This document shows positions 12,962 to 18,111 of a DNA stretch of 64,000 nt, piece by piece. The stretch lies in NCBI RefSeq assembly GCF_044324875.1, contig NZ_CP172185.1. One strand, 5' to 3'. The first letter of the stretch is position 1. The number at the start of each line of letters is the position of its first letter. Both the position numbers and the translations under genes were made by a program. Under the pieces are notes generated by a model. That model was not told the origin of the DNA. It saw only the letters and a list, made by a program, of their open reading frames with translations, and searched no databases. The DNA comes from Escherichia coli. Lineage in GTDB: Bacteria > Pseudomonadota > Gammaproteobacteria > Enterobacterales > Enterobacteriaceae.

Positions 12962-13594
12962 ATGAGCAGAATTATCACCATCACAGTGTATACGCTGGAT
13001 GAACTTTCCTGCCCGGCACGGGAAAAAGCCCGCGACGGGTACCGTCAGCATCATGCTGACAGCAACTGGTATGAAAACGTGTATGAGGACGTCAGGGAGG
13101 TCTGTGGCATTTTCGGAATTGACCTCTGCCAGCGTGTTATCCGTCTCAGCAACGGCAGGTTTATGGAAGAGCCGTGCATCTGGTTCAGCGGATTCTGCAG
13201 CCAGGGACGGAGCCTGTTTTGAAGGACGCTGGCACTGGCAGTCAGCAACAACCAGGAGAGTCCGGGAGTATGCCCCGCAGAACCGTGAGCTTCATCGTAT
13301 CGCGGATGCCCTGCAGGCGGTGCAGAAACGTAACTTCTGGCAACTGCAGGCTGAAATCCACCACCGGGGACGTTACTGCCATCCGTTATCACTGTTACCC
13401 GGAACAGTCCGACTGGTCAGGCTATGACAGCCGATGCGGAAGCCGCTGTCAGCGAAGCCCTGCGCGACCTGGCCTTCTGGCTGTACCGTCAACTGGAAAA
13501 CGAGTACGACCAGATGACCTCAGACGCCGCTGTGGATGAGGCCATTCTCATCAATGCATACATCTTCACCGAAACCGGTCAGCGCACCGGCTGA
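12962..13594 (+). pseudogene. Apparently disrupted gene: protein-like segments in three reading-frame pieces (12962-13222, about 13200-13427, 13424-13594)
   Basis: All three segments translate to plausible protein sequence but are separated by frame changes; the last piece (57 aa) is below the ORF-track threshold. Confidence 0.35.
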
Positions 13595-13643: not shown

Positions 13644-14012
13644 GTGTCAGACACACTCTCCGGGATAACTCATCCCGACGACAATCACGACCGCCCCTGG
13701 TGGGGGCTTCCCTGCACAGTGAGGCCCTGTTTTGGCGCCCGTCTGGTGCAGGAGGGTAACCGCCTGCATTACCTTGCCGACCGCGCCGGCATCAGAGGCC
13801 GGTTCAGCGATGCGGATGCATACCATCTGGACCAGGCCTTTCCGCTGCTGATGAAACAACTGGAACTCATGCTCACCAGCGGTGAACTGAATCCCCGCCA
13901 TCAGCATACCGTGACACTGTATGCGAAGGGGCTGACCTGCGAAGCCGACACCCTCGGCAGTTGTGGTTACGTTTATCTGGCTGTTTATCCGACGCCCGAA
14001 ACGAAAAAGTAA
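13644..14012 (+). CDS. Type IV antitoxin, CbeA/YeeU/YfjZ family
   Basis: 122 aa, near-identical to recalled YeeU (MSDTL.G.T.PDDNHDRPWWGLPCTV...TPETKK). Confidence 0.9.
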   Translation: MSDTLSGITHPDDNHDRPWWGLPCTVRPCFGARLVQEGNRLHYLADRAGIRGRFSDADAYHLDQAFPLLMKQLELMLTSGELNPRHQHTVTLYAKGLTCEADTLGSCGYVYLAVYPTPETKK

Positions 14013-14102
14013 ACCACCGGAATAACCTTCTGCTCCGGCCAGGTGTTTTCACCACGCCACTCTCCCCATAATTTAATCTCTCATATCAGGAAAATCTTCA
14101 GT

Positions 14103-14513
14103 ATGAAATTATTACCCGACACACATGTACGGGAGGCATCGTGCTGCCCGTCTCCCGTCACCATCTGGCAGACACTGCTCATCCGTCTGCTGGACCAGCA
14201 CTATGGCCTCACACTGAATGACACACCGTTCGCTGATGAACGTGTGATTGAGCAGCATATTGAGGCCGGCATTTCACTGTGCGATGCGGTGAACTTTCTC
14301 GTTGAAAAATACGCACTGGTACGTACCGACCAGCCGGGATTCAGCGCAGGAGCCCCGTCGCAGTTAATCAACAGCATCGATATTCTCCGGGCCCGCCGGG
14401 CAACAGGCCTGATGACACGTAATAACTACAGAATGGTAAATAACATTACCCTGGGTAGCATCCGGGGGCGAAACGATGAAACTTTCCCTGACGCTGGAAG
14501 CCGACAGCATTAA
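14103..14513 (+). CDS. Type IV toxin, CbtA/YeeV/YpjF family
   Basis: Start trimmed to MKLLPDT; [67 protein letters not shown] matches YeeV. Confidence 0.85.
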
Positions 14514-14898
14514 CGTGCAGGCACTGAACATGGGGCGCATTGTCGTTGACATTGATGGTGTAAATCTCGCTGAACTGATTAACAAGGTCGCTGAATACGG
14601 TTATTCACTCCGCGTGGTGGATGAACGTGACGCTACCGAAACACCGGCGACTTCTGCCAGCTCTCATCAGTTGCCGGAAGACAATACAGTGATACAGAGC
14701 GTGATGCCATTAACCACTGAAACAGCGCTGGATATCCTCATTGCGTGGCTGCAGGACAATATCGACTGCGGGTCCGGAATTATTTTCGACAACGATGAGG
14801 ATAAAACGGATTCGGCAGCACTGCTGCCCTGTATTGAACAGGCCAGGGAGGATATCCGTACCCTGCACCAACTGCAACTTCTGCACCAGAACCGGTGA
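14476..14898 (+). CDS. YeeW-like protein
   Basis: 140 aa; overlaps the 3' end of the toxin gene, as yeeW follows yeeV in CP4-44. Confidence 0.55.
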
Positions 14899-14982
14899 AT
14901 CTCACTCACCAGACTTCATTCTCCTGACGCCAGCCTGAACAGAGCTGGCGTTTTCGTTTATAAACAGAAAGGAAACCCCATA

Positions 14983-15768
14983 ATGTCATATATCACAATC
15001 CCCCACCCGAACGCGGTCAACGGACATACAGCCGTTATCTGTTCCACAAGTATCAGACACATCCTGGCTGTACGAAAGAGTACACTGCTGCAAATCGACA
15101 CGCTTATCCGGCAACTGACAGAAATCTCAGCACTGACGGAAAGTATTGGCGGTAAAGCCGCCCCGGACTGGGCCATGAAACAGGATTTTCGCTGTGGCTG
15201 CTGGCTGAAGGAGAAACAGGAAACCGCAATGAAAGCCATTACCCGGAATCTTGACCGCGAAATCTGGCGTAACCTGATGCAGCGTTCCGGGATGCTTTCC
15301 TTAATGGATGCACAGGCACGTGATACATGGTACAGGTCACTGGAATATGATAATTTTCCGGAAATCAGTGAAGCGAACATTCTGAGCACATTTGAACAAC
15401 TGCACCAGAATAAGGATGAAGTGTTTGAGCGGGGGGTGATCAACCTCTTCAAAGGGCTGAGCTGGGATTACAAAACCAACTCACCCTGTAAATTTGGCAG
15501 TAAAATTATCGTCAACAATCTGGTGAGGTGGGACCAGTGGGGATTTCATCTTATCAGTGGAATGCAGGCAGATCGCCTGGCTGACCTGGAAAGAATGTTG
15601 CATCTGCTCAGCGGTAAACCGATCCCCGACAACCGGGGAATATCACCATTAATCTGGATGACCACATACAGTCCGTTCAGGGTAAAGGACGCTATGAAGA
15701 TGAGATGTTCATCATTAAATACTTTAAGAAGGGAGCTGCACACATCACTTTCAAAAGGCTGGAGCTGA
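14983..15768 (+). CDS. Hypothetical protein, last gene of the island (possibly DUF4942-like)
   Basis: 261 aa ATG-initiated ORF; family assignment from memory is tentative. Confidence 0.5.
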   Translation: MSYITIPHPNAVNGHTAVICSTSIRHILAVRKSTLLQIDTLIRQLTEISALTESIGGKAAPDWAMKQDFRCGCWLKEKQETAMKAITRNLDREIWRNLMQRSGMLSLMDAQARDTWYRSLEYDNFPEISEANILSTFEQLHQNKDEVFERGVINLFKGLSWDYKTNSPCKFGSKIIVNNLVRWDQWGFHLISGMQADRLADLERMLHLLSGKPIPDNRGISPLIWMTTYSPFRVKDAMKMRCSSLNTLRRELHTSLSKGWS

Positions 15769-15935
15769 TTGACAGAATTAACGATATAATAGCCAGGCAC
15801 TTTCCTTCTGTGCTCTCAGCCTGACCCCGAGTTTGATTCCCTTTCGATATCAAAAGGGACTGCGGGTACAAAAGAGGGTACATCTTTCACCAAACCAAAC
15901 AAAATAAACCAATATCAACACGATAGAAGCATTCT

Positions 15936-15993: not shown

Positions 15994-16572
15994 CGTTTCA
16001 GGACGCCACAATTTAAGCGTTCTGCCTAAAAATCATTTCTACCGAACTCAACCAGATTCTCCCCACATCACCAGCAATTTGCGGGCATATCCCAATTCGG
16101 GGAAATGTGTTCCTGAGCTATAGCACTGACTGACGTGAAATGTCGTGCGGCCCCGTGATGCTGTTGAACGTCAAATGACGTCATCAGGAGCGTAACGCAT
16201 CCATAAAGCACAACATCGGGCAGAACGCCGACTGATGAGATTTTCTGAATGAGAACAAAGAGAAATGTATCAGTCCGCTTGCTCATGCAAAGACTAACAA
16301 TCCATAAAAATAGTAAGCGCTCCGGGCAATTTTCCATGGATTATTTTCTGAACATTTTTCTTTGGCAAAGATGATGAATTTTGATGGTAAGGAATATTAC
16401 TTCTGGTTCTCAGTAAAATCCTTTCGTAATACTATGTGATCAAGAAGTTTATGGCTGGTAAAAATAACGTCTTGCATTCACCAATAATATGTAAATAAAC
16501 CCATCTATAGATGGTAAAAATAGGTTGTGGCAATTATCATTGCATCATTCCCTTTTCGAATGAGTTTCTATT

Positions 16573-18111
16573 ATGCAACAACCTGTAGTTCGCGTTGGCG
16601 AATGGCTTGTTACTCCGTCCATAAACCAAATTAGCCGCAATGGGCGTCAACTTACCCTTGAGCCGAGATTAATCGATCTTCTGGTTTTCTTTGCTCAACA
16701 CAGTGGCGAAGTACTTAGCAGGGATGAACTTATCGATAATGTCTGGAAGAGAAGTATTGTCACCAATCACGTTGTGACGCAGAGTATCTCAGAACTACGT
16801 AAGTCATTAAAAGATAATGATGAAGATAGTCCTGTCTATATCGCTACTGTACCAAAGCGCGGCTATAAATTAATGGTGCCGGTTATCTGGTACAGCGAAG
16901 AAGAGGGAGAGGAAATAATGCTATCTTCGCCTCCCCCTATACCAGAGGCGGTTCCTGACACAGATTCTCCCTCCCACAGTCTTAACATTCAAAACACCGC
17001 AACACCACCTGAACAATCCCCTGTTAAAAGCAAACGATTCACTACCTTTTGGGTATGGTTTTTTTTCCTGTTGTCGTTAGGTATCTGTGTAGCACTGGTA
17101 GCGTTTTCAAGTCTTGATACACGTCTTCCGATGAGCAAATCGCGTATTTTGCTCAATCCACGCGATATTGACATTAATATGGTAAATAAAAGTTGTAACA
17201 GCTGGAGTTCCCCGTATCAGCTCTCTTACGCGATAGGCGTGGGTGATTTGGTGGCGACATCACTTAACACCTTCTCCACCTTTATGGTGCATGACAAAAT
17301 CAACTACAACATTGATGAACCGAGCAGTTCCGGTAAAACATTATCTATTGCGTTTGTTAATCAGCGCCAATACCGTGCTCAACAATGCTTTATGTCGGTA
17401 AAATTGGTAGACAATGCAGATGGTTCAACCATGCTGGATAAACGTTATGTCATCACTAACGGTAATCAGCTGGCGATTCAAAATGATTTACTCCAGAGTT
17501 TATCAAAAGCGTTAAACCAACCGTGGCCACAACGAATGCAGGAGATGCTCCAGCAAATTTTGCCTCATCGTGGTGCGTTATTAACTAATTTTTATCAGGC
17601 TCATGATTATTTACTGCATGGCGATGATAAATCATTGAACCGTGCCAGTGAATTACTAGGTGAGATTGTTCAATCATCCCCCGAATTTACCTACGCGAGA
17701 GCAGAAAAAGCATTAGTTGATATCGTGCGCCATTCTCAACATCCTTTGGATGAAAAACAATTAGCAGCACTGAACACAGAAATAAATAACATTGTTACAC
17801 TACCGGAATTGAATAACCTGTCCATTATATATCAAATAAAAGCGGTCAGTGCTCTGGTAAAAGGTAAAACAGATGAGTCTTACCAGGCGATAAATACTGG
17901 CATTGATCTTGAAATGTCCTGGCTAAATTATGTGTTGCTTGGCAAGGTTTATGAAATGAAGGGGATGAACCGGGAAGCAGCTGATGCATATCTCACCGCC
18001 TTTAATTTACGCCCAGGGGCAAACACCCTTTACTGGATTGAAAATGGTATATTCCAGACTTCTGTTCCTTATGTTGTACCTTATCTCGACAAATTTCTCG
18101 CTTCAGAATAA
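16573..18111 (+). CDS. cadC: CadC, membrane-bound ToxR-like activator of cadBA
   Basis: 512 aa, matches E. coli CadC. Confidence 0.95.
   Translation: MQQPVVRVGEWLVTPSINQISRNGRQLTLEPRLIDLLVFFAQHSGEVLSRDELIDNVWKRSIVTNHVVTQSISELRKSLKDNDEDSPVYIATVPKRGYKLMVPVIWYSEEEGEEIMLSSPPPIPEAVPDTDSPSHSLNIQNTATPPEQSPVKSKRFTTFWVWFFFLLSLGICVALVAFSSLDTRLPMSKSRILLNPRDIDINMVNKSCNSWSSPYQLSYAIGVGDLVATSLNTFSTFMVHDKINYNIDEPSSSGKTLSIAFVNQRQYRAQQCFMSVKLVDNADGSTMLDKRYVITNGNQLAIQNDLLQSLSKALNQPWPQRMQEMLQQILPHRGALLTNFYQAHDYLLHGDDKSLNRASELLGEIVQSSPEFTYARAEKALVDIVRHSQHPLDEKQLAALNTEINNIVTLPELNNLSIIYQIKAVSALVKGKTDESYQAINTGIDLEMSWLNYVLLGKVYEMKGMNREAADAYLTAFNLRPGANTLYWIENGIFQTSVPYVVPYLDKFLASE

What the first reader, a model, noticed from the sequence alone, without database searches (positions are those of the whole stretch)
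13644..14898. CbeA/CbtA-type toxin-antitoxin pair with the toxin 3' end overlapping a YeeW-like gene
The pair is near-identical to YeeU/YeeV. The toxin reading frame here runs about 30 codons past where recalled YeeV ends and overlaps the start of the YeeW-like ORF by 38 nt, so the toxin C-terminus or the YeeW start may differ from K-12.
Basis: partly seen in the sequence, partly recalled or inferred. Interest (0 to 1): 0.3.

Follow-up and report, generated by a model that had tools for sequence, protein, structure and literature searches.

The report
Frameshifted CbtA toxin gene, known allele
This is an ordinary E. coli CbeA/CbtA toxin-antitoxin pair in a decaying genomic island, where loss of one base near the end of the toxin gene gives it a longer, altered tail; the same allele is already in public databases, flagged as frameshifted.

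Summary
Window 13644-14012 encodes a CbeA/YeeU antitoxin, 92% identical to K-12 CbeA. Window 14103-14513 encodes a CbtA-family toxin, 85% identical to K-12 CbtA over 119 residues. It overlaps the next ORF (14476-14898) by 38 nt.

The toxin is 136 aa, against 124 aa in K-12 and 125 aa in the closest intact relatives. That is 11-12 extra codons, not about 30. The ORF's upstream GTG at 14043 adds 20 spurious N-terminal codons, which probably explains the rest.

No stop codon was lost. One A is missing at 14457 (GGTAAGCAT became GGTAGCAT, codon 119). Putting it back restores ...LGKHPGAKR* and the usual ATGA stop/start overlap at 14476-14479.

The exact 61-nt junction occurs in 43 of 20,395 RefSeq E. 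coli records. In all five loci inspected, NCBI's PGAP pipeline annotates the toxin as "frameshifted". The exact 136-aa protein is deposited on about 1,000 contigs.

Two neighbouring genes also carry frameshifting deletions, so this looks like island decay. The toxin domain (Pfam positions 1-112) and F65 are intact, so the protein may still be toxic; that is inference.

The "YeeW-like" ORF is a recurrent 140-aa fusion of DUF5983_N and "DUF957". K-12 YeeW is a truncated copy of it.

The parts
13644..14012 (+). cbeA/yeeU-family type IV antitoxin gene, intact, 122 aa
   Evidence: Pfam PF06154 CbeA_antitoxin, E 7.8e-55. 92% identical to K-12 CbeA. The protein is identical to WP_039023579.1 of strain ACN002.
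14103..14513 (+). cbtA-family toxin gene with a frameshift. The ORF is 136 aa: residues 1-118 are canonical and residues 119-136 ([18 protein letters not shown]) are read in the wrong frame.
   Evidence: Pfam PF06755, E 1.6e-59, profile 1-112/112. Alignments to K-12, UPEC 536, B1-56 and S1-NGR-02-A. PGAP marks the same gene 'frameshifted' in ACN002, AR_0085, LH50-c, strain 135 and 23CRST013.
14457..14457 (+). Site of the 1-nt deletion. A single A remains where intact alleles have AA (GGT AAG CAT), in codon 119.
   Evidence: DNA alignments A1, A2 and A4. Re-inserting one A in silico gives ...LGKHPGAKR*, 125 aa, ending at TGA 14477-14479.
14476..14479 (+). ATGA, the canonical toxin stop (TGA) overlapping the start (ATG) of the downstream gene. 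Here the TGA is out of frame for the toxin.
   Evidence: K-12 cbtA/yeeW and UPEC 536, B1-56 and S1-NGR-02-A cbtA/DUF5983 all overlap by 4 nt. Frame translations.
14476..14898 (+). YeeW-like ORF, 140 aa. It consists of a DUF5983 N-terminal domain (residues 4-57), an approximately 18-aa linker, and the complete 65-aa 'DUF957' sequence (14701-14898).
   Evidence: Pfam PF25638, E 7.3e-29, and no C-domain PF19419. PGAP splits it into a partial DUF5983 plus DUF957 WP_085975623.1. The same continuous 140-aa ORF is present in B1-56 and S1-NGR-02-A. Alignment A5. Many 137-140-aa homologue clusters.
14926..14958 (+). Terminator-like hairpin (GACGCCAGC...GCTGGCGTTTTCGTTT) after the YeeW-like ORF
   Evidence: RNA fold of 14920-14965 gives -16.5 kcal/mol, followed by a T-rich run. 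The consensus scan missed it, probably because its loop limit is 3-8.
12962..13594 (+). Upstream neighbour, a pseudogene (PGAP: 'antitoxin of toxin-antitoxin stability system, frameshifted')
   Evidence: Compared with the intact 214-aa homologue L007:349-993, it has a 2-nt deletion after 13203 and a 10-nt deletion after 13386. PGAP annotation.
14983..15824 (+). Downstream neighbour, a DUF4942 gene with a frameshift
   Evidence: Pfam PF13708 on the 261-aa ORF, covering only profile positions 1-130 of 190. It has a 1-nt deletion after 15637 compared with the intact UPEC 536 gene. PGAP marks it 'frameshifted' in ACN002.

Best explanation
This is a type IV CbeA/CbtA (YeeU/YeeV-family) toxin-antitoxin pair. 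It sits in the conserved gene block DUF932 - antirestriction - RadC/JAB - DUF987 - ... - cbeA - cbtA - DUF5983/DUF957 - DUF4942, in a degraded CP4-like integrative island next to cadC.

Shown:
- The toxin gene has lost one A at 14457, in codon 119 of 125.
- The last 7 residues (KHPGAKR) are therefore replaced by 18 unrelated residues.
- The stop moves 34 nt downstream, to TAA at 14511-14513.
- The usual 4-nt ATGA stop/start overlap with the next gene becomes a 38-nt overlap.
- The allele is inherited and has moved between island copies by recombination. It is not private to this genome, and RefSeq already annotates it as frameshifted.

Inferred:
- The change falls after the whole Pfam toxin domain, in a tail that the toxic K-12 paralogues YkfI and YpjF lack altogether.
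- C-terminal GFP fusions of CbtA remain toxic.
- The 136-aa protein therefore probably still binds FtsZ and is still countered by the intact CbeA.
- Ribosomes translating the toxin now run across the start of the downstream gene, whose Shine-Dalgarno is also GGGGG here instead of GGAGG. Translational coupling to the YeeW-like gene is therefore probably altered.
For: - Families and coordinates.
- Single-base gap at GGT-AGC against four intact alleles.
- In-silico repair restores a 125-aa protein ending at the ATGA.
- PGAP marks the toxin 'frameshifted' at five loci.
- The exact 61-nt junction occurs in 43 records of 20,395, and one further record (H114, 23CRST013) has the same length with two substitutions.
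- The exact 136-aa protein is on 996 contigs, under UniProt and NCBI names.
- The same frameshift is found next to cadC, next to fabI (strain 135) and next to ulaD (23CRST013, where the toxin 5' part differs and a full-length DUF5983 lies downstream). This indicates recombination between island copies.
- Neighbouring genes also carry frameshifting deletions.
- YkfI (113 aa) and YpjF (109 aa) end before the affected tail, and F65 is conserved.
- AlphaFold gives pLDDT below 50 for residues 119-136, but the model is weak overall.
Against: - Nothing contradicts the frameshift itself.
- Against retained toxicity there is no experimental test. PGAP treats the gene as a pseudogene, and the surrounding island is visibly decaying.
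- In strain 135 the paired antitoxin copy next to fabI is itself frameshifted. That would be tolerated more easily if the toxin were inactive or poorly expressed.
- C-terminally His-tagged YpjF was reported to be non-toxic in one study, cited in PMC5371832.
- The structure model is too poor (mean pLDDT 59) to say whether the tail matters.
Confidence: 0.9

Rival explanations
1. The frameshift kills the toxin, so cbtA here is a true pseudogene and cbeA is an orphan antitoxin in a decaying island.
For: - PGAP flags the gene as a pseudogene.
- Two neighbouring genes are also frameshifted.
- In strain 135 the antitoxin beside a copy of this allele is itself frameshifted.
- One report found C-terminally His-tagged YpjF non-toxic, cited in PMC5371832.
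Against: - The whole Pfam domain (1-112) and F65 are intact.
- Only the last 7 of 125 residues are replaced.
- YkfI and YpjF lack this tail and are toxic (PMC5624674).
- C-terminal GFP fusions of all three toxins are toxic.
Confidence: 0.35
2. One reading: the toxin's in-frame stop codon was lost by a point substitution, giving a read-through extension.
For: The toxin ORF does run past the position of the canonical stop.
Against: - The canonical TGA is unchanged at 14477-14479.
- The frame changes 20 nt upstream through a 1-nt deletion.
- The residues between 14457 and 14476 already differ from the conserved KHPxAKR.
Confidence: 0.01
3. It is a sequencing or assembly error in this window, and the true sequence has AA at 14457.
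For: Single-base indels are a common type of assembly error.
Against: - The run is only two bases long, not a long homopolymer.
- The exact 61-nt junction is found in 43 complete RefSeq records from many laboratories and hosts.
- The exact 136-aa product is on about 1,000 contigs.
Confidence: 0.01
4. The long tail is a selected functional variant, or part of a programmed frameshift or overlapping-gene arrangement that regulates the downstream DUF5983_N-DUF957 gene.
For: - The allele persists in at least 43 genomes and at three different chromosomal sites.
- A 2026 preprint proposes programmed frameshifting in this gene neighbourhood (10.64898/2026.06.09.728211).
Against: - There is no slippery heptamer at GGGTAGC.
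- The tail sequence is simply the out-of-frame reading of the conserved junction, and it is constrained by the overlapping DUF5983 start.
- About 4,900 genomes carry homologous loci, but the 1-nt deletion was found in only 44 records, 43 of them exact.
- Persistence is explained by hitch-hiking in a recombining island.
- The architectural differences the preprint attributes to frameshifting are real DNA indels.
Confidence: 0.05

Closest known systems
CbtA/CbeA (YeeV/YeeU) of E. coli K-12 cryptic prophage CP4-44
   Same: - Same gene order: DUF987 (yeeT) ... cbeA - cbtA - yeeW.
- CbeA is 92% identical and CbtA 85% identical over residues 1-119.
- F65, the FtsZ-contact residue, is conserved.
- The roughly 90-nt cbeA-cbtA spacer is similar.
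   Different: - The toxin tail is frameshifted (136 aa against 124 aa).
- Residue 15 is Cys rather than Arg, as in YkfI, YpjF and the closer alleles.
- K-12 lacks 12 nt at the cbtA/yeeW junction.
- K-12 YeeW is cut to 64 aa by a TAA where the window has GAA.
- The island here is next to cadC, and an extra pseudogene lies between the DUF987 gene and cbeA.
Intact 125-aa CbtA-family alleles of UPEC 536, B1-56 and S1-NGR-02-A (WP_001094445.1, WP_000854681.1, WP_001487841.1)
   Same: 86-90% protein identity. Same start, and the same ATGA junction sequence apart from the missing A.
   Different: These end ...GKHPEAKR/QQ* with a 4-nt overlap. The window allele is shifted at codon 119 and overlaps the next gene by 38 nt.
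The identical frameshift allele in RefSeq genomes (for example ACN002 locus ACN002_RS22305; UniProt A0A0U4BLW2)
   Same: 100% identical over 14103-14898. Same cadC-adjacent position and the same neighbouring pseudogenes.
   Different: There are four clustered synonymous differences in cbeA (13913-13928), and the sequence upstream of about 13600 is more divergent.
YkfI/YafW (CP4-6) and YpjF/YfjZ (CP4-57)
   Same: Same toxin and antitoxin families, and the same island gene block.
   Different: Only 58-62% identical. These toxins are 113 and 109 aa and lack the C-terminal tail altogether. No DUF5983 gene follows them in K-12.
DUF5983 / 'DUF957' (AntiFam ANF00264; Aec77/Aec78) genes downstream of cbtA
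   Same: The N-terminal domain PF25638 is present. The last 65 aa are 88% identical to the separate 65-aa DUF957 protein of UPEC 536. It sits immediately downstream of cbtA (preprint).
   Different: The DUF5983 C-domain (PF19419) is absent. The two parts form a single 140-aa ORF instead of two genes.

Membership tests
CbtA toxin family (Pfam PF06755; type IV TA toxin) | Full-length match to the CbtA_toxin profile above the gathering score | tested here: met
   199.2 bits against a cut-off of 25, profile 1-112/112, residues 1-112.
CbtA toxin family (Pfam PF06755; type IV TA toxin) | Conserved FtsZ-contact residue F65 (Heller et al. 2017) | tested here: met
   N64 and F65 are invariant in the 7-sequence alignment A3. 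The residue's role is taken from PMC5624674.
CbtA toxin family (Pfam PF06755; type IV TA toxin) | Gene sits immediately downstream of a CbeA/YeeU-family antitoxin gene | tested here: met
   cbeA is at 13644-14012 and the toxin starts at 14103.
CbtA toxin family (Pfam PF06755; type IV TA toxin) | Intact reading frame to the canonical stop (124-125 aa, ...GK(H/Y)PEAK(R)*) | tested here: not met
   A 1-nt deletion at 14457 shifts the frame at codon 119. PGAP marks the gene 'frameshifted'.
CbtA toxin family (Pfam PF06755; type IV TA toxin) | Toxicity through FtsZ/MreB binding, neutralised by CbeA | not testable with these tools
   This needs expression experiments. The inference rests only on the intact domain and on published tolerance of C-terminal fusions.
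CbeA/YeeU antitoxin family (Pfam PF06154) | Full-length profile match and an intact ORF of about 122 aa | tested here: met
   184.1 bits, profile 1-100/101. 112/122 residues identical to K-12 CbeA.
DUF5983 family (YeeW-like) | N-terminal domain PF25638 | tested here: met
   99.6 bits, residues 4-57.
DUF5983 family (YeeW-like) | C-terminal domain PF19419, as in the 162-aa full-length proteins | tested here: not met
   No hit even at E<=10. UPEC 536 DUF5983 does have it. About 276 nt are absent from the window.
'DUF957' / AntiFam ANF00264 domain | Similarity to the 65-aa proteins annotated as DUF957 | tested here: inconclusive
   88% identical to the UPEC 536 65-aa protein, and equal to WP_085975623.1 as annotated by PGAP. 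The Pfam copy used here holds no model that hits either protein, and the AntiFam model was not available.

The most novel reading that the evidence does not exclude
The 136-aa tail variant might be a tolerated or even selected toxin allele, not a dead gene. Under this reading it has been copied by recombination into at least three island sites (next to cadC, fabI and ulaD). Its changed termination point, 34 nt inside the next gene, together with the weakened Shine-Dalgarno, would lower or uncouple translation of the downstream DUF5983_N-DUF957 protein. That protein would then act as a third component of the CbtA/CbeA module.
Probability: 0.1. Interest if true: 0.3.

Novelty: already known. Interest (0 to 1): 0.08.

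Why it matters
It matters little. The practical value is for annotation:
- The toxin's true start is 14103, not 14043.
- The long tail is a 1-nt-deletion frameshift, which RefSeq already flags.
- The K-12 genes are the atypical reference: CbtA lacks the final R, and YeeW is truncated and lacks 12 nt at the junction.

One side result has modest interest. The different "DUF5983 / DUF957 (ANF00264)" gene architectures, which a 2026 preprint attributes to a possible programmed frameshift, come from real DNA insertions and deletions between island copies. In the short form the two parts form one continuous 140-aa ORF.

Tried and rejected
- **NCBIfam scan** of the five local proteins: no hits.
- **Pfam scan for DUF957**, on the 140-aa ORF, on its last 65 aa and on the UPEC 536 65-aa protein: no model hits.
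- **PDB sequence searches** with the toxin and with the YeeW-like protein: nothing found.
- **AlphaFold2 model of the toxin** on a 7-sequence alignment: mean pLDDT 59. It is usable only for the weak statement that residues 119-136 score below 50.
- **AlphaFold2 model of the 140-aa ORF** on a 27-sequence alignment: mean pLDDT 45, uninformative. It neither supports nor contradicts the preprint's high-confidence ANF00264 dimer.
- **Literature search for 'yeeW'**: hits were mostly unrelated papers, none on the gene.
- **tRNA scan**: no tRNA in the window, so the island's attachment tRNA could not be placed.
- **Consensus promoter/terminator scan**: nothing above shuffle expectation, and it missed the hairpin at 14926-14958.
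- **Rejected explanations**: stop-codon point mutation, sequencing error and an independent long-tailed CbtA lineage (see the rival explanations).
- **Not run**: a database-wide survey of CbtA lengths. The E. coli genome counts already answer the question.

Full report
**What is at the coordinates**

The ORF list and raw sequence show three consecutive + strand ORFs.
- 13644-14012 (122 aa) matches Pfam CbeA_antitoxin over the whole profile (E 7.8e-55). It is 92% identical to K-12 CbeA/YeeU.
- The next mechanical ORF is 14043-14513 (156 aa, GTG start). The real start is ATG 14103. The sequence GAAAATCTTCAGT**ATG**AAA is conserved with the K-12 cbtA start. PGAP starts the gene there in a 100%-identical genome. 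Pfam CbtA_toxin profile position 1 aligns with residue 1 of the 136-aa product (E 1.6e-59, profile 1-112/112).
- 14476-14898 (140 aa) carries the DUF5983 N-terminal domain (E 7.3e-29). It is 81% identical to K-12 YeeW over 62 residues.
- There is only one copy of each gene in the window.

**Size of the extension**

K-12 CbtA is 124 aa and overlaps yeeW by 4 nt. The closer intact alleles in UPEC 536, B1-56 and S1-NGR-02-A are 125 aa, also with a 4-nt overlap. The window toxin is 136 aa, so the excess is 11-12 codons, not about 30. The 156-aa mechanical ORF exceeds K-12 by 32 codons. The figure therefore most likely mixes 20 spurious N-terminal codons with the real C-terminal change.

**Cause**

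DNA alignments against K-12 and the three intact alleles show one gap. Intact genes read GGT AAG CAT CCG GAG GCG AAA CGA TGA. The window reads GGT AGC ATC CGG GGG CGA AAC GAT GAA..., with a single A at 14457.

- The canonical TGA is still there at 14477-14479, inside the ATGA that also holds the downstream start, but it is now out of frame.
- Re-inserting one A in silico gives ...NNITLGKHPGAKR*, 125 aa, ending exactly at that TGA.
- The event is therefore a 1-nt deletion in codon 119, not loss of a stop codon by substitution.
- The last 7 residues are replaced by 18 residues ([18 protein letters not shown]), and termination moves to TAA 14511-14513.

**Is it real, and is it new?**

- Over 14103-14898 the window is 100% identical to E. 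coli ACN002. Over 13644-14898 it is 99.7% identical, differing by four clustered synonymous changes in cbeA.
- The exact 61-nt stretch around the deletion is present in 43 of 20,395 RefSeq E. coli records. One further record has the same length with two substitutions. About 4,900 of 5,426 genomes carry homologous loci.
- In all five loci I opened, PGAP annotates the toxin as "frameshifted".
- The exact 136-aa protein is in the protein collection on 996 contigs. It carries the names "Toxin" (UniProt A0A0U4BLW2) and "MULTISPECIES: TA system toxin CbtA family protein".
- A sequencing error is therefore excluded, and the allele is already known.

**Context**

- The pair lies in the usual CP4-like island block: GTPase, DUF932, antirestriction, RadC/JAB, DUF987, a pseudogene, cbeA, cbtA, DUF5983/DUF957, DUF4942 and an integrase remnant. 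The block lies directly upstream of cadC at 16573-18111. The window is collinear with ACN002 downstream and 98.7% identical there.
- The upstream neighbour 12962-13594 has 2-nt and 10-nt deletions relative to an intact 214-aa homologue.
- The downstream DUF4942 gene has a 1-nt deletion after 15637.
- The toxin frameshift is thus one of several lesions in a decaying island remnant.

**Spread of the allele**

- The same frameshift is found next to fabI in strain 135, where the adjacent cbeA copy is itself frameshifted.
- It is also found next to ulaD in strain 23CRST013. That copy is identical to the window from cbeA through the toxin 3' end. It differs in the toxin 5' part and is followed by a full-length DUF5983 gene.
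- This mosaic pattern indicates recombination or gene conversion among island copies, not recurrent mutation.

**Likely functional consequence (inference)**

- The shift lies after the complete Pfam domain, and F65, the FtsZ-contact residue, is conserved (PMC5624674).
- The K-12 paralogues YkfI (113 aa) and YpjF (109 aa) end before this tail and are toxic (PMC5624674 and PMC5371832).
- I therefore rate retained toxicity as somewhat more likely than not, at about 0.55-0.6.
- Points against: PGAP calls it a pseudogene, the island is decaying, the antitoxin is broken in one carrier locus, and an older report found C-terminally His-tagged YpjF non-toxic.
- The AlphaFold model is poor (mean pLDDT 59). 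It only weakly suggests that residues 119-136 are disordered.
- A second inferred effect concerns the downstream gene. Ribosomes now read through its start, and its Shine-Dalgarno is GGGGG where the four aligned intact alleles have GGAGG. Termination-reinitiation coupling is therefore probably changed.

**The YeeW-like ORF**

- Full-length loci (UPEC 536, 23CRST013) have a 162-aa DUF5983 protein (PF25638 plus PF19419), an 11-nt gap (19 nt in 23CRST013) and a separate 65-aa "DUF957" gene.
- The window, B1-56, S1-NGR-02-A and K-12 carry a short form. It lacks about 276 nt, including the DUF5983 C-domain, its stop codon and the spacer.
- In the short form the DUF5983 N-domain runs in frame, through an approximately 18-aa linker, into the complete DUF957 sequence. 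The result is one 140-aa ORF.
- PGAP, which works by homology, splits this ORF into "DUF5983, missing C-terminus" and "DUF957".
- Many 137-140-aa clusters at 84-91% identity exist, and so do 207-234-aa N+C+DUF957 fusions.
- K-12 YeeW (64 aa) is the short form cut by a TAA where the window has GAA. K-12 also lacks 12 nt at the cbtA/yeeW junction. That is why its CbtA ends ...YPEAK* and its YeeW starts MMTLEAD, rather than [10 protein letters not shown] as here.
- A 2026 preprint (10.64898/2026.06.09.728211) describes these same three contexts for AntiFam ANF00264 and suggests a programmed frameshift. The alignments here show ordinary DNA-level indels instead.
- My structure prediction of the 140-aa ORF was uninformative (mean pLDDT 45).

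**Verdict**

It is a known, inherited 1-nt-deletion allele of a CbtA-family toxin in a degraded island. Interest is low.

Noticed in passing
window 14476-14898; L005:1867-2564; L006:1875-2297; L007:1875-2297; L002:5941-6135: The YeeW-like ORF is a single 140-aa in-frame fusion of DUF5983_N, a linker and the complete 65-aa 'DUF957' protein. The fusion comes from the absence of about 276 nt relative to the two-gene long form. K-12 YeeW is this form cut by a TAA. A 2026 preprint attributes these alternative architectures to a possible programmed frameshift, but the DNA alignments show real indels.
   Followed up: partly
window 12962-13594: The gene between DUF987 and cbeA is a pseudogene (PGAP: 'antitoxin of toxin-antitoxin stability system'; an intact 214-aa homologue exists in S1-NGR-02-A). 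It has a 2-nt deletion after 13203 and a 10-nt deletion after 13386. The intact homologue has no Pfam hit.
   Followed up: partly
window 14983-15824: The DUF4942 gene is frameshifted by a 1-nt deletion after 15637, relative to the 280-aa UPEC 536 protein. The ORF as read is 261 aa.
   Followed up: partly
window 13913-13928: Four synonymous differences from ACN002 (13913, 13916, 13925, 13928) fall within 16 nt of cbeA, in an otherwise identical 1,255-nt stretch. This looks like a short gene-conversion patch from a paralogous island copy.
   Followed up: no
L010:5219-6053 (strain 135, next to fabI); L011:3230-4538 (23CRST013, next to ulaD): The same toxin frameshift occurs at two other chromosomal sites. 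In strain 135 the adjacent cbeA is also frameshifted (one base lost in AAAAGGG). In 23CRST013 cbeA has a 15-nt in-frame deletion, and a full-length DUF5983 follows the toxin.
   Followed up: partly
window 14464-14468: The Shine-Dalgarno-like motif ahead of the YeeW-like start is GGGGG in this allele. All four aligned intact alleles have GGAGG.
   Followed up: no
window 14926-14958: A hairpin (-16.5 kcal/mol) followed by a T-rich run lies right after the YeeW-like ORF. It is a likely operon terminator ahead of the DUF4942 gene. The consensus scan did not report it.
   Followed up: partly
window about 16155-16315 and 16573-18111: By collinearity with ACN002 (98.7% identity), a roughly 160-nt tyrosine-integrase remnant lies between the island and cadC. 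ARAGORN finds no tRNA anywhere in the 64-kb window, so the expected attachment tRNA is not nearby.
   Followed up: no
L003:3558-3695 (AR_0085): In a 98.9%-identical cadC-adjacent copy, the DUF957 part is shortened by a GAA-to-TAA nonsense change. This is further evidence of ongoing decay in this island lineage.
   Followed up: no
window 14145-14147 (toxin residue 15): The toxin has Cys at position 15, where K-12 CbtA has R15. The R15C substitution abolishes MreB binding in K-12 CbtA. YkfI, YpjF and the three closer intact alleles (UPEC 536, B1-56, S1-NGR-02-A) also have Cys there, so K-12 is the outlier among the sequences aligned.
   Followed up: partly
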